IMG/VR virus record: IMGVR_UViG_3300045988_104087
Span: 1-19,332 of that record
Strand: one strand, 5' to 3'
DNA: 19,332 bases
From: a virus
Lineage: Duplodnaviria; Heunggongvirae; Uroviricota; Caudoviricetes
Shown: positions 2,490 through 15,677 of the stretch, one piece after another
How positions within the stretch are numbered: position 1 is the stretch's first letter
Layout of the letters: every line of letters begins with the position of its first letter
Made by a program: the position numbers and the translations under genes
The notes under the pieces: generated by a model
The model's input: only the letters and a program-made list of their open reading frames with translations
The model's database searches: none
What the model was told of the DNA's origin: nothing

Positions 2490-3390
2490 CCGAGCCTCCG
2501 GTCACGACGCTGTATTCGGTACAGAAAGACGCCTGCGTACTGTCAAGCACGATGTCAGCCAGTGGTGCAGCCAGTTCGACACGCTGCACGCCTTCCACAT
2601 GCAAAGCGGCATAAATGGCAGACAGACGGATGTCGCGCCCCAGCCGGTGCTGTGCCGTGATGTACGCTTCCAGTTTTTTCACGGCGGCAGCGCGTATGGG
2701 TTCGCTTTCGGGACCAGGGTAAAGGTAAAGCGTGGCGTTTATCTGGTATTCAACGATGGCGGCAGACTGCACGGTCACGCGGTCGGCCACCGGCCTGACG
2801 TCCTCGCCATTAAGGGCGTTACGCACCACGGCCAGCAGGTCTTCGGATGCAACACCGTTATTTTCACGTGACAGCACAGAGATGGTGACGCAGGCCGGAG
2901 ACGGACTGGTTACAGAAATATCCGCGACACGCCCGTCGGCACTGCGACCATGATACTGATAGGCACCCACCGACCCGGCGACGCTTAAACCTTCAAACGC
3001 CTGCTGAATACGCAGACGATAATCCGTGTCAGATTCCATCACTGCCGGTGTCGGCGGGATGGTCGAATCATCTTCCGGGGTGATAATCAGGCGCGTGGTG
3101 TTGTAATTAGCACCAATCACATCAAGATCATTACCGGCGGCACAGGCCAGCATTACCGCCCGTGCGGCCTCATTCACACGCTGACGCCAGATAAGCTCAC
3201 GATAAGCATTTTCCTCCAGCAGTTTGACGAGAGGCTCAGATTCCAGCGTCAGGGTACGGGCGACCGCCTCCTGCTGGTCTTCCGGGTAAAGGGAAATCAG
3301 TGTCGCCTTGCGTTCGGCAAGAATGGTTTCAAAGTCCAGCTCCTCGACCACATCCGGTGCGGGTAGCTGGTTCAGGTCGATAATCGGCAT
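2482..3390 (-). CDS. J: Baseplate assembly protein J
   Basis: 302 aa ORF (MPIIDLNQLPAPDVVEELDFETILAERKATLISLYPEDQQ...) recognised as baseplate J family. Position between W and I matches P2. Confidence 0.9.
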   Translation of the reverse strand: MPIIDLNQLPAPDVVEELDFETILAERKATLISLYPEDQQEAVARTLTLESEPLVKLLEENAYRELIWRQRVNEAARAVMLACAAGNDLDVIGANYNTTRLIITPEDDSTIPPTPAVMESDTDYRLRIQQAFEGLSVAGSVGAYQYHGRSADGRVADISVTSPSPACVTISVLSRENNGVASEDLLAVVRNALNGEDVRPVADRVTVQSAAIVEYQINATLYLYPGPESEPIRAAAVKKLEAYITAQHRLGRDIRLSAIYAALHVEGVQRVELAAPLADIVLDSTQASFCTEYSVVTGGSDE

Positions 3391-3394
3391 GGTT

Positions 3395-3742
3395 TCAACT
3401 CACAGGGATGGTTAACGAAAGTGGCTGGCCGGTGTCGTTGTGCTGACCGGTTAACGTGACCGTCATTCGCCCGTCAAAACTGCGCGCCGTGGTGACGGAT
3501 GACAGGGTGACGCGGGGTTCCCATTTCAGCACCGCCATGTAACAGGCGACCTTAATCTGCAACTCAAGCGCCGGGGTCTGCGGCTGGTCAATCATTGACG
3601 CCAGCAACGAGCCGTAATCACGACGCATCACCCGTGAGCCGACCGGTGTGCGCAGGATATCGCCGATACTCTGGCTGATATGCTCAAGGTCAGTGACAGT
3701 CAGGCCATCACTGCGATTCATTCCGAGATAACGCGCTGTCAT
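3395..3742 (-). CDS. W: Baseplate wedge protein W (gp25/GPW family)
   Basis: 115 aa ORF (MTARYLGMNRSDGLTVTDLEHISQSIGDILRTPVGSRVMRRDYGS...) typical of GPW/gp25 baseplate proteins. 4-bp overlap with V. Confidence 0.9.
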   Translation of the reverse strand: MTARYLGMNRSDGLTVTDLEHISQSIGDILRTPVGSRVMRRDYGSLLASMIDQPQTPALELQIKVACYMAVLKWEPRVTLSSVTTARSFDGRMTVTLTGQHNDTGQPLSLTIPVS

Positions 3743-4374
3743 AGAGGACTCCCGGTTGTGCCGCCGCTGTCGCCGGGGTGTTTATGGGTATGCAGTACCT
3801 TACCGTTTGATGAGAGTTCACCGCCGGTATGCGCGATGTTGCCGCGCATCGTCCCGCCCTTCTGCACTTCCAGCGTGCCGGTAGTCAGTTTGTTAGTGCA
3901 GACCACTTCCGGTGTGTCCAGGGTGACGCGGGTTGATGCTTTCACCGTGACCACCGGCACCGTGGCAGTAACAGAATCAGAAGCCGTCACGCTGGCCGTT
4001 TTAATTCCGCTTACCGTGAGTGCACTGGTTTCGGGTTCATACTCAATCACCGCCCCGTCAGGGAAACGGATATGCAGGGCATCCTCCGACGCAGACGGCG
4101 CGGGGTTATCACTGGAATAAATCCCCGGCAGAACGAACGCCGTGTCGAGTTCACCGCCCACGGCCAGAATCAGCACCTGCTCCCCCACGGAAGGTGCCCA
4201 CCATGTGCGCGAACGTCCGGCGCGATGGGTCAGCCACTGAAGCCAGTCGGTACACATGCCGCCGGTCTGCACACGGCAGCGACCGGCGTTAAGGTCGGTT
4301 TCGACGATAATGCCGGTGCGAATCATGTTGCGCAGTGCGCGCGCGAGTTCCTGAATACTTGATAATGTGCTCAT
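3739..4374 (-). CDS. V: Baseplate spike/assembly protein V
   Basis: The ORF track gives 234 aa from 4443. I chose the internal Met (MSTLSSIQELARALRNMIRTGIIVETDLNAGRCRVQTGG...) with ATG at 4374-4372, giving 211 aa, which matches the P2 gpV length I recall. The upstream 23 codons run antisense into the neighbouring plus-strand gene. Confidence 0.85.
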   Translation of the reverse strand: MSTLSSIQELARALRNMIRTGIIVETDLNAGRCRVQTGGMCTDWLQWLTHRAGRSRTWWAPSVGEQVLILAVGGELDTAFVLPGIYSSDNPAPSASEDALHIRFPDGAVIEYEPETSALTVSGIKTASVTASDSVTATVPVVTVKASTRVTLDTPEVVCTNKLTTGTLEVQKGGTMRGNIAHTGGELSSNGKVLHTHKHPGDSGGTTGSPL

Positions 4375-4394
4375 ATGACAATAATGGGGAACAT

Positions 4395-5201
4395 ATGCTC
4401 GAAAAACTATTGCAACCCGTTGTATCATTTTCGGCACAACCAAGAAGGAGCCGAAGCAGGGATAAATATCAAATCTGGGAAAAACAAAAAGACACCATCG
4501 CCCATAAAGAATATTTAAAAATTTCCGACACCAATTTACTTGGACATATACACATTGCCAATTATGAGGTAATTCAAAGTGAATTAAGCAAATTCAACTC
4601 TCCTGAAATTGTATTCCACTACTCACTTAATAGAAATGAATTAAAAAAAGAGCACATAAATATATCAAGACATTTTCTCAACTATATCTCCTCAGCATTA
4701 TCATTTAGAGATTCAACGCGAAATCTACATAAAATCAATGTATTAAATATTGATGACATTACCAATAAATCCAGAGAAATCATCAATGAAGAATTTTTAA
4801 AAAATCCAATCATAAAATTAATGGAAGATTTAAGAAACATCCTAACTCATCAAAAAATGATCTCCCCATTAATATCATCATTTATGCACCTCCAGAAAAA
4901 AATAAACATACACGGATTTGCATTTAAGATTGAAACCATACTGGAGAATGACCGACTCTCTGGTAAATCAAAAGAATACCTGAAGTCAACAGAACAAAAA
5001 AATTTATTCATCTTGCCGATAATAGAGGAATACCAATACACAACTCTTAAATACCAGCACTGGCTTTTAGCTTGTATCCACAATGCTCATCAAAACACAT
5101 ATCCAGAATATTGGGAAGCAAGAAAAAACATAATGGACGTCTGGGGTGGAGATATCCAACTAATACCTGAAGAGAGTACCCTCACTTATTTGACCAGATA
5201 A
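4395..5201 (+). CDS. Hypothetical protein, AT-rich accessory (moron) gene on the opposite strand between S and V; possible HEPN-like or abortive-infection protein
   Basis: 288-codon open frame from 4335. I prefer the ATG at 4395, which is preceded by GGGGA at 4386-4390 and gives 268 aa. Strongly AT-rich from about 4460 onward, where a chance open frame of this length would be very unlikely. Opposite orientation to all flanking late genes. Followed by its own hairpin terminator. Contains R-N-x-x-x-H (LRNILTH). Start codon is uncertain (4335, 4365 and 4395 are all possible). Confidence 0.6.
   Translation: MLEKLLQPVVSFSAQPRRSRSRDKYQIWEKQKDTIAHKEYLKISDTNLLGHIHIANYEVIQSELSKFNSPEIVFHYSLNRNELKKEHINISRHFLNYISSALSFRDSTRNLHKINVLNIDDITNKSREIINEEFLKNPIIKLMEDLRNILTHQKMISPLISSFMHLQKKINIHGFAFKIETILENDRLSGKSKEYLKSTEQKNLFILPIIEEYQYTTLKYQHWLLACIHNAHQNTYPEYWEARKNIMDVWGGDIQLIPEESTLTYLTR
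4421..4438 (-). promoter_or_regulatory. Candidate activator dyad TGT-N12-ACA upstream of V (possible Ogr-type late promoter element)
   Basis: The sequence TGTatcattttcggcACA at 4421-4438 matches the TGT-N12-ACA dyad described for P2/P4 late promoters. It sits about 55 bp upstream of the V start codon, inside the 5' coding end of the opposite-strand ORF. A 6-base pattern like this is expected several times by chance in 19 kb. Confidence 0.2.
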
Positions 5202-5233
5202 CAATCTAATTAGCTCACAAACATAAGACACCT

Positions 5234-5262
5234 TGGCCACGATATTTTATCGTGGCCTTATA
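5234..5262 (+). terminator. Candidate intrinsic terminator of the cargo gene
   Basis: Perfect 9-bp inverted repeat GGCCACGAT-(ATTTT)-ATCGTGGCC at 5234-5256, followed by T/A-rich sequence (TTATATAATAAA), 33 bp after the ORF stop. Confidence 0.45.
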
Positions 5263-5414
5263 TAATAAAGCGACTACCTTCGATGAGTCCTTATAACTCT
5301 CATCCACTGCACATTTTCAAGTTACAATTAAAGTTCATTTAGTTGAAATATAAAAAGGATGCCGCAAGAGGATAATGGCGATATTTCATCAATAAGGCGC
5401 AAGAAATGGCACAA

Positions 5415-5867
5415 CTAACGGTCGAGGTGAGCCAGAATAATCTCTTCAATCATCTGCACATCCTCACCGGTAAAGCCGAGCAGAGGACGCGCCGGATAAT
5501 CAATTTTCTTACCGTCTTTCCGAGTTTCTTCCGACAGACCGAACTGATGCACACTGGCGATTTTCGGTGACTTCCCGCCGTAAAACTCCATTGATGCCTG
5601 TTCCGGGCTGGCGCGGATATGCAAAAAACGACTGGTGATAAGTTTCGCAAACATTTTTCGCTTAACGCGACCGGTCTTTTTTCTGGCGCTCTGCTGCTGG
5701 CGTGGCGCGTAGGGTGTGCCGTCCGGGGCTTTCTGTGCCATCACCCGACGCTGCTGACTCTGCCGCAGACGTTTCGCCAGTTCGGCGCTCAGTCGCCGAC
5801 GCCCTGACGGTGACAGCGATTCAATCAGTCCGGTCAGCCGGTCTTCAAAACGCTTAAACTCATTCAT
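5415..5867 (-). CDS. S: Tail completion protein S
   Basis: 150 aa ORF (MNEFKRFEDRLTGLIESLSPSGRRRLSAELAKRLRQSQQRRV...) recognised as P2 gpS family. Overlaps the R stop. Confidence 0.85.
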   Translation of the reverse strand: MNEFKRFEDRLTGLIESLSPSGRRRLSAELAKRLRQSQQRRVMAQKAPDGTPYAPRQQQSARKKTGRVKRKMFAKLITSRFLHIRASPEQASMEFYGGKSPKIASVHQFGLSEETRKDGKKIDYPARPLLGFTGEDVQMIEEIILAHLDR

Positions 5868-6327
5868 CCCACTTGCTCACCAGTTCGCCATTGATATAAA
5901 GCTCCACCGGGCGGGTGACCGGCTCCGGCGGCGGAGGTTCCGGGATATTCTTCACATGCAGTGCGCCGTCCACCTCACTGACCAGCGTGCGCTCGGTCAG
6001 CATCAGGCTGATACTGATATCAAAGCTGCTGTCATTGTTGATGTCTGCATAAAACGTGAAGCCCTTTTTCTGGCCTTCGTCGGTGGTCATGATGTCGGGC
6101 TGATTTTCCCGCAGCCACGCCAGCACCGGCACAATGAGCAGGTCAAAATCACCGGTAAAGTCGGTCACAATCACATTGAGCGTGTAACGCTTTTCGAATG
6201 ACAGCGACGCCGCCAGTGTGGAGGCAATACTCCCGTTATCCACGAATATCCGCAGCATATCGGGGTTAGTTTTCAGCACCGTGACGGCATCAGTCAGCGC
6301 CCTGCGCAGGCTGTCGGGTTTGAGCAT
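5860..6327 (-). CDS. R: Tail completion protein R
   Basis: 155 aa ORF (MLKPDSLRRALTDAVTVLKTNPDMLRIFVDNGSIASTLAAS...) recognised as P2 gpR family. Confidence 0.85.
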   Translation of the reverse strand: MLKPDSLRRALTDAVTVLKTNPDMLRIFVDNGSIASTLAASLSFEKRYTLNVIVTDFTGDFDLLIVPVLAWLRENQPDIMTTDEGQKKGFTFYADINNDSSFDISISLMLTERTLVSEVDGALHVKNIPEPPPPEPVTRPVELYINGELVSKWDE

Positions 6328-14595: not shown

Positions 14596-14600
14596 ATATC

Positions 14601-14622
14601 GCCGCCTGCGGGCGGCTTTTTT
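14601..14622 (+). terminator. Intrinsic terminator after Q
   Basis: GCCGCC-(TGCG)-GGCGGC hairpin followed by TTTTTT, immediately 3' of the Q stop codon. Confidence 0.5.
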
Positions 14623-14764
14623 ACAACCCGCCATCACGCCCTCACACGCTCACCACCGCACAAAATAGCCCGCAGACACACCAACGCCCCTGCAGGCCGA
14701 CTAAATGCCATCACGACGCGCTCAGACGCTGAAAAAATAAAATCAGCACCACCGCCAGCGCGCA

Positions 14765-14783
14765 GTGCTTTCCCCGCCTCGCC
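14765..14783. other. cos site (19-nt cohesive-end sequence of P2-type phages)
   Basis: GTGCTTTCCCCGCCTCGCC at 14765-14783 is the reverse complement of GGCGAGGCGGGGAAAGCAC, which I recall as the P2 cohesive end. It lies about 170 bp past the Q stop, where cos is expected. Confidence 0.6.
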
Positions 14784-15183
14784 CGCCCGCTTCACGGGGC
14801 GGTTTTAATGCAGTTGCATAGATACTATGGATCCGCACCAGTCCTGACCGCACGCAGCCTGAACGGACATCCCCAACGCATGCAAAAACATTCACTTGTT
14901 GCATGCATAGCTTTTTAAGTACGCCATACCGCAACTGTACATTTTTAAGCAATTGGCAACTTTAAAAAATTTACATTGCTTTCAAGACCTTATCATCCGT
15001 AGTCTCTGTTTTTTACTTTGAGCTACATCAATAAAATCTCAAACATGTTTAATGCAAAGCCCTTGTTACACAACATAGAATGTATGTCTAGAAACAACGA
15101 CATACTATATGTTGTGTTTTTCCGGTTCTCTGTTCGGTGATATGCCAAATCACTTTGCGTTTAAACAGAGCATTATTTCAGGG

Positions 15184-15198
15184 CAAGACTTCGCTCAA
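15184..15198. repeat. Direct repeat CAAGACTTCGCTCAA, copy 1
   Basis: Exact 15-mer, repeated at 15448-15462. The two copies bracket the small peptide gene and its terminator. Confidence 0.6.
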
Positions 15199-15261
15199 AA
15201 GTCATTCCACCTAAGAAGCGCATATACCGGTGGAAGTTGCCCTCTACTTACAGGAGGCAAT

Positions 15262-15375
15262 ATGAAGAAATGCTATTACTGCATTCTCGTTCTGGCCCTC
15301 TTTGGCTATCCAAACGGTAGTCCGAGTGGTTTGTCAGTAAACGTCAGTAATATCAATGTCAGCATTATGCTTTAA
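15262..15375 (+). CDS. Small hydrophobic peptide (37 aa), hypothetical
   Basis: ATG at 15262 preceded by a strong Shine-Dalgarno AGGAGG at 15252-15257 (4-nt spacer). Product MKKCYYCILVLALFGYPNGSPSGLSVNVSNINVSIML, stop TAA. A strong terminator follows 20 bp downstream. The 88-codon frame from 15109 has no ribosome-binding site. Confidence 0.35.
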   Translation: MKKCYYCILVLALFGYPNGSPSGLSVNVSNINVSIML

Positions 15376-15394
15376 TATGCTTCAAACAAAAAAA

Positions 15395-15417
15395 CCACCT
15401 GCCAGGGTGGTTTTTTT
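15395..15417. terminator. Intrinsic terminator, possibly bidirectional
   Basis: A-run (15388-15394), then CCACC-(TGCCAG)-GGTGG hairpin, then TTTTTTT (15411-15417). The flanking A and T tracts allow termination in either direction. Confidence 0.6.
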
Positions 15418-15447
15418 GCGCCCATCATCAATACGATGAAAGACTGA

Positions 15448-15462
15448 CAAGACTTCGCTCAA
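15448..15462. repeat. Direct repeat CAAGACTTCGCTCAA, copy 2
   Basis: Exact copy of the 15-mer at 15184-15198, about 31 bp downstream of the terminator. Confidence 0.6.
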
Positions 15463-15677
15463 GACGAATTATGCGTCGACATAAGGTTACCCGCAATGAT
15501 TTTATTAGACTAAATGGATGGCCTTTTATGACCCGGATCAAACGGCTGTCCTTACCGACATGCTAGTCACTCAATAGCATTTAGCCTTCTAATTCAGCAT
15601 GCTATTGACCTTCTGCTGCCCCATAACTGCTCCGCATAAGCCATTCAATGCCATATCAAATTACGTTGTGTTTTTAC

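What the first reader, a model, noticed from the sequence alone, without database searches (positions are those of the whole stretch)
4395..5201. Opposite-strand AT-rich cargo gene between tail genes S and V: candidate uncharacterised accessory or anti-phage gene
All flanking late genes are on the minus strand in GC-rich DNA. This 268-codon ORF is on the plus strand, and the sequence turns sharply AT-rich from about 4460 to about 5410. An open frame of that length in AT-rich DNA is very unlikely by chance, and it has its own hairpin terminator (5234-5262). Temperate phages of this family are known to carry defence and lysogenic-conversion genes at a few fixed positions; from memory P2 itself has an uncharacterised AT-rich ORF (orf30) at the S-V junction. 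I cannot assign a family from the sequence alone.
Basis: partly seen in the sequence, partly recalled or inferred. Interest (0 to 1): 0.8.

Follow-up and report, generated by a model that had tools for sequence, protein, structure and literature searches.

The report
HEPN-like cargo gene in P2 orf30 slot
Between two tail genes of a P2-like phage sits a real, foreign, oppositely oriented gene from an uncatalogued protein family with an RNase-type (HEPN-like) signature; it is a good candidate for a new single-gene anti-phage defence, although this particular copy has lost its start codon.

Summary
There is an AT-rich (28-37% GC) plus-strand ORF with its own hairpin between the minus-strand tail genes V and S of a P2-like phage. 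The open frame is far longer than chance allows.

Three corrections:
- **Gene start.** The conserved gene is 247 codons and starts at 4458, behind a strong Shine-Dalgarno.
- **Start codon.** In this window the start codon is AGG instead of ATG. It is the only difference from E. coli NCTC9040 over 1040 nt, so this copy is probably silent.
- **P2 Orf30.** P2's own Orf30 (261 aa, membrane protein) occupies the same slot but is unrelated.

The slot holds at least four unrelated cargo genes in E. coli; this one is the rarest (18 of 5426 genomes).

The protein has no Pfam, NCBIfam or PADLOC match. A profile search found 129 distant relatives. Their three best-conserved positions are N75, R126 and H131, which include an R-N-x3-H motif at the end of a helix, the HEPN RNase signature. 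The AlphaFold model is confident (pLDDT 94.5), but fold matches are weak.

Relatives down to about 29% identity sit at the same S-V junction in diverged P2-like phages. dN/dS is 0.17.

Best reading: a solo HEPN-like abortive-infection gene. This is inferred, not shown.

The parts
4458..5201 (+). The conserved cargo coding sequence: 247 codons plus a TAA stop. It is the homologue of WP_021561346.1.
   Evidence: PGAP annotates 247-aa proteins at this position in NCTC9040 and strain 504838. All IMG/VR relatives start here. dN/dS is 0.17 between the two E. coli alleles.
4458..4460 (+). Lost start codon: AGG here, ATG in every relative examined (T to G at 4459).
   Evidence: Alignment. It is the only mismatch to NCTC9040 over 1040 nt. 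15 of 15 close relatives have ATG. The exact 268-aa product is on record from one 19332-nt contig only.
4395..4457 (+). Probably not translated.
   Evidence: The ATG at 4395 is ATA in allele B and out of frame in the Citrobacter homologue. It lies upstream of the predicted -10 element.
4440..4448 (+). Shine-Dalgarno AAGAAGGAG, 9 nt before codon 4458.
   Evidence: Sequence. Conserved as AAGAAGGA in allele B and as AGAAGGA in the Citrobacter homologue. P2 orf30 has AAGGAG at the equivalent place.
4399..4428 (+). Candidate sigma-70 promoter of the cargo gene: -35 TCGAAA (4399-4404), 18-nt spacer, -10 TATCAT (4423-4428).
   Evidence: Consensus scan gives 9 of 12 matches. Both hexamers and the 18-nt spacing are kept in allele B and in the 57%-identical Citrobacter locus. 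The number of promoter-like hits in the region is not above chance, so this is inferred.
4421..4438 (.). TGT-N12-ACA late-activator (Ogr) box of the V promoter. It overlaps the cargo -10 element.
   Evidence: Pattern match. Its centre is 55.5 nt from the V ATG, the same geometry as the pV activator site and V transcription start annotated in the P2 reference. The consensus is cited in PMC3931495.
3739..4374 (-). Baseplate gene V, the left flank. By analogy with P2, its ATG (4372-4374) is also its transcription start.
4833..4850 (+). Codons for R126-N-I-L-T-H131, the Rx4H HEPN-type motif.
   Evidence: R is found in 112 of 112 family members, H in 111 of 112, and the residue after R is N in 84%. 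The motif sits at the C-terminal end of helix 117-131 in the AF2 model.
4680..4682 (+). Codon for N75, invariant in all 112 family members.
5235..5257 (+). Terminator-like hairpin GGCCACGATA-TTT-TATCGTGGCC.
   Evidence: Compensatory A:T to G:C change in allele B. Each alternative cargo has its own hairpin at the same place.
5356..5414 (.). Fossil of the 'empty-site' S-V intergenic region (AAGGATGCCGC...GGCACAAC), displaced 975 nt from V.
   Evidence: Alignment with phage Wphi. Direct repeat GGCACAAC(C/T)AA at 4433-4443 and 5408-5418.
5415..5867 (-). Tail completion gene S, the right flank.

Best explanation
The feature is a 975-bp moron cassette in the 'orf30 slot' of a P2-like (Peduovirus) phage.

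**Cassette layout**
- It sits between the leaderless start of baseplate gene V and the stop of tail gene S.
- It carries one soluble all-alpha protein of 247 aa, read divergently from V.
- The gene's Shine-Dalgarno abuts the Ogr activator box of the V promoter.
- Its likely sigma-70 promoter overlaps the V promoter on the other strand.
- It ends in its own hairpin.

**The protein**
- It belongs to an uncatalogued family with about 130 representatives at 50% identity.
- One clade of this family is a long-standing resident of this slot in diverged P2-like phages.
- The best-conserved residues (N75, R126, N127, H131, plus D/E85 and R88) fit the HEPN metal-independent RNase active site.

**Most likely mechanism (inferred)**
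1. The gene is expressed in the lysogen while the late genes are silent.
2. The protein stays dormant. There is no antitoxin partner, as with HepS.
3. A component of an infecting phage activates it.
4. It cleaves RNA (tRNA or mRNA) and aborts the infection.
5. When the prophage itself goes lytic, Ogr and RNA polymerase at the V promoter would occlude the cargo promoter.

**This copy.** The start codon is AGG, so it is probably not translated. The mutation is either a very recent null or an assembly error.

**Shown:** cassette anatomy, foreign composition, purifying selection, slot polymorphism, family and motif conservation, start-codon loss.
**Inferred:** promoter use, RNase activity, defence role, Ogr occlusion.
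For: - **Real gene.** The open run is 274 codons, against a maximum of 156 in 2000 shuffles. Between the two E. coli alleles dN/dS is 0.17 at dS 0.77, while the flanking V and S genes are 96-98% identical.
- **Moron architecture.** GC is 0.28-0.37 against 0.58-0.64 in the flanks. S and V are adjacent in most relatives. The hairpin has a compensatory change. The SD and promoter boxes are conserved.
- **Variable slot.** In 5426 E. coli genomes the slot holds this gene in 18, the P2-orf30 type in 464, an HNH-like gene in 77 and a 347-aa hydrophobic protein in 60. The four are mutually unrelated.
- **Family.** There are 129 hits at E<1e-3, mostly 230-250 aa.
- **Conserved residues.** N75 and R126 are invariant. 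H131 is present in 111 of 112. Residue 127 is N in 84% and D/H/E/Q in the rest. D/E85 is present in 90%.
- **Structure.** The AF2 model has pLDDT 94.5 and pTM 0.90, with the motif at the end of helix 117-131 followed by a loop. HEPN is defined this way in PMC3710099.
- **Residence at the slot.** Homologues of 57%, 34%, 31%, 26-29%, and 29-38% identity all lie between V and S, on the opposite strand, in diverged P2-like phages.
- **Context of distant members.** They stand alone in mobile regions, one directly after a type II R-M system.
- **Precedent.** HepS is a solo prophage HEPN abortive-infection protein (PMC13043305). P2 cargo genes old, tin and fun exclude other phages (PMC9122126, PMC9519451).
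- **Start-codon loss.**
Against: - No member of the family matches any Pfam or NCBIfam HEPN model, or any PADLOC defence model, even at permissive thresholds.
- Foldseek finds nothing significant in PDB or BFVD.
- The R/H superposition on a solved HEPN could not be checked because no coordinates were available.
- There are no expression data. The promoter is a 9-of-12 consensus match in a region where such matches are at chance frequency.
- There are no phenotype data.
- Truncated copies recur (L031 and L032 are frameshifted; P0003, P0139; this window's AGG). That fits a dispensable or costly gene equally well.
- No isolated phage in GenBank carries it.
Confidence: 0.5

Rival explanations
1. 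A moron with a function other than defence. The protein could be a lysogenic-conversion or host-fitness factor, or a regulator or nucleic-acid-binding protein. The R/H/N residues would then bind a ligand rather than catalyse RNA cleavage.
For: No defence-database hit. Neighbourhoods of distant homologues are mixed and mostly uninformative. Fold matches are to generic helical bundles.
Against: An invariant R-[N/D/H]-x3-H at a helix end, together with a conserved acidic residue upstream, is the HEPN nuclease signature. The characterised P2 cargo genes old, tin and fun exclude other phages, and several further cargo systems from the gpA-portal hotspot gave phage resistance when tested (PMC9122126, PMC9519451). 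One homologue abuts an R-M system.
Confidence: 0.2
2. A lytic-cycle accessory of the phage, not a lysogen-expressed defence. It would be transcribed divergently from the Ogr/delta-responsive V promoter region late in infection. Possible roles are degrading host or competitor RNA, counter-defence, or interfering with satellite P4.
For: The gene starts directly beside the Ogr box, and its promoter region is the V promoter region. The family has stayed at this exact slot through deep divergence of P2-like phages. That suggests a functional tie to this position.
Against: The activator box geometry fits V, with its centre at -55 of the V start. It does not fit the cargo gene, where -55 would place a start inside the ORF. 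Unrelated cargo genes use the same slot. The gene is absent from about 99% of E. coli P2-like prophages, so it is not needed for growth.
Confidence: 0.12
3. In this window the feature is a dead gene. The start-codon loss makes it a fresh pseudogene, or the T to G change is an assembly error and the gene is intact in reality. Either way the 268-codon ORF as called is an annotation artefact of the next upstream ATG.
For: AGG here against ATG in 15 of 15 close relatives, and it is the sole difference from NCTC9040 in 1040 nt. The 268-aa product is known from one metagenomic contig only. ATG 4395 lies upstream of the predicted -10 and is not conserved. Other inactivated copies exist: L031 and L032 are frameshifted, and truncated forms P0003 and P0139 are on record.
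Against: This concerns only this copy, not the nature of the gene. The frame is otherwise intact. Translation from 4395 cannot be excluded if a transcript starts inside V.
Confidence: 0.75
4. An alpha-helical pore-forming or membrane-acting toxin of the ClyA/Nhe/Xax type, rather than a nuclease.
For: The top Foldseek PDB hits are NheA, PaxB/XaxB, MakB and ClyA. The model has long helices plus a beta-hairpin at 138-157.
Against: Those hits are not significant: E >= 0.04, probability 0.1-0.4, TM 0.13-0.23. The protein has no hydrophobic segment, with a maximum KD19 of 0.53. Its best-conserved residues are R, H and N, not a hydrophobic tongue.
Confidence: 0.03

Closest known systems
HepS (STM14_3211), the solo HEPN abortive-infection protein of Salmonella prophage Gifsy-1 (PMC13043305)
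   Same: It is a single prophage-encoded gene in an accessory slot with no antitoxin or partner. It has an Rx4H motif and a helical fold. It is proposed to be dormant until triggered.
   Different: No sequence relationship could be tested, because the LT2 Gifsy-1 record held no obvious HepS. This protein is larger (247 aa). It has an invariant N75, extra N-terminal helices and a beta-hairpin after the motif. Its host phage is a myovirus of the P2 type. Trigger, target and oligomeric state are unknown.
HepT / DUF86 minimal HEPN toxins (PDB 8xdj, 7ae2, 5yep, 1ylm, 1wwp)
   Different: HepT toxins are about 130 aa and are paired with an MNT antitoxin. This gene has no partner, is twice as long, and gives no profile match to PF01934 or other HEPN Pfam models.
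P2 Orf30 (NP_046770.1)
   Same: Same slot, same opposite-strand orientation, same AT-richness (GC 0.34). Its SD abuts the pV activator site in the same way, and it has its own hairpin.
   Different: It is an unrelated protein: 261 aa with three hydrophobic, membrane-span-like segments (Kyte-Doolittle scan) and no similarity. It is far commoner, in 464 against 18 of 5426 genomes.
P2 exclusion genes old, tin and Z/fun, and the P2 defence hotspots (Rousset 2022 PMC9122126; Vassallo 2022 PMC9519451)
   Same: They are AT-rich non-essential cargo at fixed positions of P2-like phages, swapped between otherwise near-identical phages.
   Different: Those hotspots are gpA-portal and the Z/fun site. The papers read here did not treat the S-V slot as a defence hotspot. 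No cargo of this slot has a known function.
Lactococcal and other HEPN Abi proteins (AbiD/F, AbiV, AbiJ, AbiU2; Anantharaman 2013, PMC3710099)
   Same: They are stand-alone helical proteins of 200-350 aa with RNxxxH, on mobile elements, acting by abortive infection.
   Different: No HMM match to any of these Pfam families for any of the 112 members.

Membership tests
HEPN superfamily (as defined in PMC3710099) | Conserved Rx4-6H motif | tested here: met
   R126 is present in 112 of 112 and H131 in 111 of 112 family members, with a spacing of 4.
HEPN superfamily (as defined in PMC3710099) | The residue after R is polar, mostly N, D or H | tested here: met
   N in 94 of 112 members; D, H, E and Q account for a further 13 (4, 3, 3 and 3).
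HEPN superfamily (as defined in PMC3710099) | Motif at the end of core helix 3, at the start of the loop to helix 4 | tested here: met
   In the AF2 model (pLDDT 94.5) the helix spans 117-131 and ends at H131. A loop and a beta-hairpin follow, then the long helix 185-214. This is model-based, not experimental.
HEPN superfamily (as defined in PMC3710099) | Four-helix up-and-down core superposable on solved HEPN domains | tested here: inconclusive
HEPN superfamily (as defined in PMC3710099) | Second conserved acidic residue in helix 2 (Ex3[KR]) | tested here: inconclusive
   D/E85 is present in 90% of members, followed by R88 in 90%. That gives D-x2-R, not E-x3-[KR].
HEPN superfamily (as defined in PMC3710099) | Profile match to a catalogued HEPN family | tested here: not met
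   None of the 112 members hits a Pfam or NCBIfam HEPN model, even at E <= 10 or 0.1. HMM-HMM comparison (HHpred) could not be run.
HEPN superfamily (as defined in PMC3710099) | Metal-independent RNase activity | not testable with these tools
   Needs biochemistry.
Known anti-phage defence systems (PADLOC-DB v2.0.0) | HMM match to a defence protein model | tested here: not met
   No hit for the window protein. Only scattered single weak hits among the 112 relatives.
Phage moron / hotspot cargo | Lies between two genes that are adjacent in related phages, and is absent from close relatives | tested here: met
   S and V are 66 nt apart in Wphi and in most P2-like genomes. The gene is in 18 of 1659 E. 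coli genomes that carry the backbone.
Phage moron / hotspot cargo | Base composition deviates from the phage | tested here: met
   GC 0.28-0.37 against 0.55-0.64.
Phage moron / hotspot cargo | Own terminator | tested here: met
   Hairpin at 5235-5257 with a compensatory change in allele B. The U-tract is weak.
Phage moron / hotspot cargo | Own promoter, active in the lysogen | tested here: inconclusive
   TCGAAA-18-TATCAT is conserved across alleles and in Citrobacter. It is only a consensus match and overlaps the V promoter. There are no expression data.
P2 Orf30 family | Sequence similarity to NP_046770.1 | tested here: not met
   BLASTP gives no alignment better than E = 9.
HepS family | Sequence or profile similarity to HepS | not tested
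   No HepS sequence could be obtained. The Gifsy-1 LT2 record had no candidate with R100-x4-H105.

The most novel reading that the evidence does not exclude
A previously unrecognised branch of HEPN-like RNases has co-diverged with P2-like phages at one fixed position, back-to-back with the leaderless V late promoter.

In this reading the position is part of the mechanism. The toxin gene is on in the lysogen, where it guards against other phages. It is shut off by promoter occlusion when Ogr (or P4 delta) fires the V promoter. An abortive-infection RNase would then never abort its own phage. This would make the orf30 slot a fourth, self-regulating defence hotspot of P2-like phages.
Probability: 0.15. 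Interest if true: 0.75.

Novelty: new variant of a known kind. Interest (0 to 1): 0.55.

Why it matters
P2-like prophages are in about 30% of complete E. coli genomes. Their gpA-portal and Z/fun hotspots have already yielded many defence systems.

None of the four cargo genes found here in the S-V (orf30) slot has a known function. The hotspot papers read here did not treat it as a defence locus.

This gene gives three things:
- A concrete, small, single-gene candidate with clear catalytic-residue mutants (R126, H131, N75).
- A protein family of about 130 divergent representatives that no domain database covers, with a confident structure model.
- A testable idea about how a prophage can carry a suicide nuclease yet still grow: divergent promoters overlapping the late activator site.

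If the RNase or defence reading fails, the result still shows that the orf30 slot is a four-way polymorphic cargo site. It also shows that the gene call in this contig is an artefact of a lost start codon.

Tried and rejected
- **AF2 with only three close sequences.** pLDDT 40, unusable. Replaced by the 112-sequence alignment.
- **Direct family scans.** Pfam, NCBIfam and PADLOC scans of the protein and of all 112 relatives, at strict and permissive thresholds, gave nothing consistent.
- **PDB by sequence profile.** Only chance hits.
- **Foldseek.** Not significant against PDB or BFVD. afdb50 was unavailable.
- **Phage collection.** blastn and tblastn against 50,697 GenBank phage records found no match to the cargo.
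- **Genome-contig scan.** No relatives in the one-genome-per-species set.
- **Word-indexed protein search with the family profile.** Few hits and no informative names.
- **Is the window's gene P2 orf30?** Rejected.
- **Are the alternative cargo genes distant relatives?** Rejected.
- **Does the long fused member P0113 carry a second, C-terminal HEPN?** No support from Pfam or PDB.
- **Fetching HepS from the Gifsy-1 record for a direct comparison.** No candidate in the LT2 version.
- **Rfam.** No RNA family anywhere in the window.
- **TGT-N12-ACA count.** The count in the window is not above chance: 2 found against 4.7 expected. Only its position and spacing relative to V carry weight.
Full report
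**1. The observation**

The window is a P2-like (Peduovirus) genome segment with the late genes on the minus strand. Megablast of 3700-5900 finds about 97% identical V and S genes in Wphi, P2-type and many Yersinia and Escherichia phages. Only 53% of the query is covered, because S and V are adjacent in those genomes. In Wphi they are 66 nt apart.

- In the window V is 3739-4374 and S is 5415-5867.
- The 1040 nt between them is 33% GC. Sliding windows give 0.28-0.37, against 0.55-0.64 in the flanks.
- A plus-strand ORF ends at 5201.
- The longest open run in this segment is 274 codons. In 2000 dinucleotide-preserving shuffles the mean was 78.5 +/- 17.3 and the maximum 156.
- A perfect 10-bp hairpin lies at 5235-5257.

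**2. The true gene and a lesion in this copy**

The insert occurs in 18 of 5426 complete E. coli genomes, always on the chromosome. It exists as two alleles about 80% identical in DNA and 76% in protein.

PGAP annotates a 247-aa hypothetical protein that starts at the ATG aligned to window 4458. That ATG is preceded by AAGAAGGAG.

- In the window this codon is AGG.
- The T to G change at 4459 is the only difference from strain NCTC9040 across all 1040 nt.
- All 15 close relatives examined (two E. coli genomes and 13 IMG/VR contigs) have ATG.
It is out of frame with the gene in the Citrobacter homologue.
- That ATG also lies upstream of the predicted -10 element.
- The exact 268-aa product is on record from a single 19,332-nt metagenomic contig, which is this window.

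The 268-codon ORF is therefore what a gene caller does after the real start is lost. This copy is most likely untranslated, or the base is an assembly error.

Other broken copies exist. L031 and L032 are frameshifted after 66 codons, and truncated forms P0003 and P0139 are on record.

**3. Anatomy of the cassette**

The P2 reference record gives the key to the left end.
- The V transcript starts at the first base of the V ATG, so it is leaderless.
- The pV activator site is centred 55.5 nt upstream of that ATG.
- Orf30 lies on the opposite strand right after the activator site.
- A hairpin annotated as the O-operon terminator lies between Orf30 and S.

The window has the same plan.
- TGT-N12-ACA, the late-promoter consensus cited in PMC3931495, lies at 4421-4438. 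Its centre is 55.5 nt from the V ATG.
- A 'CACAAC' half-site at this distance from V is present in every P2-like locus looked at. It also occurs in the P/O promoter region of the window.
- The cargo SD follows the box at once.
- A sigma-70-like TCGAAA-18-TATCAT (4399-4428) lies on the cargo strand inside the V promoter region. Its -10 element overlaps the activator box.
- Both hexamers and the spacer length are kept in allele B and in the Citrobacter locus.
- At the right end, the hairpin keeps its stem in allele B through a compensatory A:T to G:C change.
- Positions 5356-5414 are a recognisable remnant of the 'empty' S-V spacer of Wphi.
- The 975-bp cassette is bracketed by a direct repeat of GGCACAAC.

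The cassette thus brought its own copy of the V promoter region and pushed the old one out of reach.

**4. The slot is polymorphic**

The V..S backbone is in 1659 of 5426 E. coli genomes. In a 60-row spread most junctions are empty.

| Cargo at the S-V slot | E. coli genomes (of 5426) |
|---|---|
| P2 Orf30 type: 261 aa, three hydrophobic membrane-span-like segments (Kyte-Doolittle), 95% identical to P2 Orf30 | 464 |
| 246-aa HNH-like protein, on the late strand | 77 |
| 347-aa protein with hydrophobic stretches | 60 |
| This gene | 18 |

None of the other three is related to this family. PMC3091744 already lists orf30 as one of three horizontal-transfer sites of P2. The recent hotspot papers concentrate on gpA-portal, Z/fun and a site near the repressor. 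A 2026 preprint mentions further hotspots 'within the late genes'.

PMC6823313 calls P2 ORF30 '261-bp-long'. The record shows 261 aa.

**5. The protein**

Direct scans give nothing except PHROG 12680, of unknown function. The word-indexed search finds only the two E. coli alleles and fragments.

A full HMMER profile search of 1.84 billion representatives finds 129 proteins at E<1e-3. Most are 230-250 aa, and a few carry unrelated C-terminal extensions.

In an alignment of 112 of them the mean column identity is 18%. The best-conserved positions are:

| Position | Conservation |
|---|---|
| N75 | 112 of 112 |
| R126 | 112 of 112 |
| H131 | 111 of 112 |
| N35, Y192, W202, R71, R88 | next best, each 90% or more |
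| Residue 127 | N in 84%, otherwise mostly D/H/E/Q |
| Position 85 | acidic in 90% |

With this alignment AlphaFold gives pLDDT 94.5 and pTM 0.90. The model is a bundle of long helices. R126..H131 closes helix 117-131, a loop and a beta-hairpin (138-157) follow, and then comes a long helix 185-214.

This is how the HEPN active site is defined. The Rx4-6H motif sits at the end of helix 3, a polar residue follows R, and an acidic residue lies in helix 2 (PMC3710099).

Structure searches are only compatible with this.
- Foldseek finds nothing significant in PDB or BFVD.
- No family member hits any Pfam, NCBIfam or PADLOC model.

I therefore call it HEPN-like and not a filed member of any HEPN family.

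**6. Evolution**

Between the two E. coli alleles dS is 0.77 and dN is 0.13, giving dN/dS 0.17. The neighbouring V and S genes are 96-98% identical in DNA. The gene is under purifying selection, yet its alleles are far older than the phage backbone around them. That is the swap pattern typical of hotspot cargo.

Homologues at lower identity all lie between V and S on the opposite strand in increasingly diverged P2-like prophages, where V is 59-66% and S 45-49% identical:

| Homologue | Identity to this protein | Locus |
|---|---|---|
| Citrobacter youngae cluster | 57% | L010-12 |
| P0007 | 34% | L015 |
| P0010 | 31% | L018 |
| P0012 | 26-29% | L016 |
| IMG/VR contigs | 29-38% | L034-36 |

One clade of the family is thus an old tenant of this slot.

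More distant members stand alone in bacterial chromosomes among integrases, IS elements, Fic and ParDE genes. One lies immediately after a type II R-M operon. No partner gene is conserved.

**7. Mechanism**

The best-supported reading is a solo HEPN-like RNase carried as a moron. It would be expressed in the lysogen, inactive by default, and triggered by an infecting phage to cut RNA and abort infection.

The closest worked example is HepS of Gifsy-1, a single HEPN protein that senses tail-tip proteins and cuts tRNA anticodon loops (PMC13043305).

The overlap of the cargo -10 element with the Ogr box suggests the gene is switched off when the prophage's own late genes fire. This step, the RNase activity and the defence role are inferences. 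None was tested.

Rivals are a non-defence moron, a lytic-cycle accessory, and a pore-former; the last is very unlikely. Independently of these, this copy is probably dead.

**8. Verdict**

- The gene is a new, uncatalogued HEPN-like family in a known kind of locus.
- Interest is moderate. It is a clean, cheap experimental candidate and an under-explored P2 hotspot. The principle (prophage solo-HEPN defence) is known, and nothing functional is shown here.

Noticed in passing
window 4458-4460: The canonical start codon of the cargo gene is AGG instead of ATG. It is the only difference from E. coli NCTC9040 across the 1040-nt insert. The gene call in the source contig (268 aa) uses the next upstream ATG.
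   Followed up: yes
L042 (P2 NC_001895) 940-1725; L004 1264-2049: P2 Orf30 is 261 aa with three hydrophobic, membrane-span-like segments (Kyte-Doolittle scan). It is present in 464 of 5426 E. coli genomes and its function is unknown. PMC6823313 describes it as '261-bp-long', which appears to be a slip for 261 aa.
   Followed up: partly
L006 1258-1998 (minus strand); L005 1291-2334: Two further unrelated cargo genes use the same S-V slot. One is a 246-aa protein with a weak HNH-like CxxC...H motif on the late-gene strand (77 genomes). The other is a 347-aa protein with hydrophobic stretches (60 genomes). Neither has a Pfam or PADLOC assignment.
   Followed up: partly
window 4372-4440: By the P2 reference annotation the V mRNA is leaderless, with its transcription start at the A of the ATG. 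The window keeps the same 55.5-nt spacing from the activator box to the V ATG. A -10-like CATTAT (minus strand, 4386-4381) fits this.
   Followed up: partly
window 4433-4443 and 5408-5418; 5356-5414: A direct repeat GGCACAAC(C/T)AA brackets a 975-bp cassette. A fossil of the empty-site S-V spacer survives next to S. The cassette therefore carries a second copy of the V-promoter activator half-site.
   Followed up: partly
window 14596-15677: The gpA-portal hotspot (the old/tin position) is nearly empty here. It holds only a small ORF (ATG 15262 to 15375, 37 aa, hydrophobic N-terminus). AGGAGG precedes it and a strong terminator-like hairpin near 15389-15410 follows it.
   Followed up: no
window about 15070-15118: A long palindrome (ACACAACATAGAATGTATGTC ... 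GACATACTATATGTTGTGT) surrounds the only other TGT-N12-ACA match in the window (15085-15102). Its function is unknown.
   Followed up: no
L031, L032 (IMG/VR) 3001-3740; proteins P0003, P0139, P0011, P0006: Frameshifted or truncated copies of the cargo gene recur in independent genomes. This suggests the gene is dispensable or sometimes costly.
   Followed up: partly
proteins P0037 and P0113; P0042, P0057 and P0064: Some family members are fused to C-terminal domains of 200-450 aa. P0037 and P0113 share one extension; P0042 overlaps separately with P0057 and with P0064. None of these extensions has a Pfam or PDB sequence match.
   Followed up: partly
L038 202-3207: A distant family member (P0029) lies directly downstream of a type II restriction-modification operon (methylase, Eco29kI-type endonuclease, Vsr).
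   Followed up: no
L016 7248-7267; L018 8716-8756: In two diverged P2-like prophages the cargo gene's 3' end overlaps the 3' end of gene S by 20 and 41 nt (convergent overlap). No room is left for a separate terminator.
   Followed up: no
phages collection: No GenBank phage isolate among 50,697 records carries this gene, by blastn or tblastn, although PHROG 12680 matches it strongly. It is known only from prophages and metagenomic viral contigs.
   Followed up: partly
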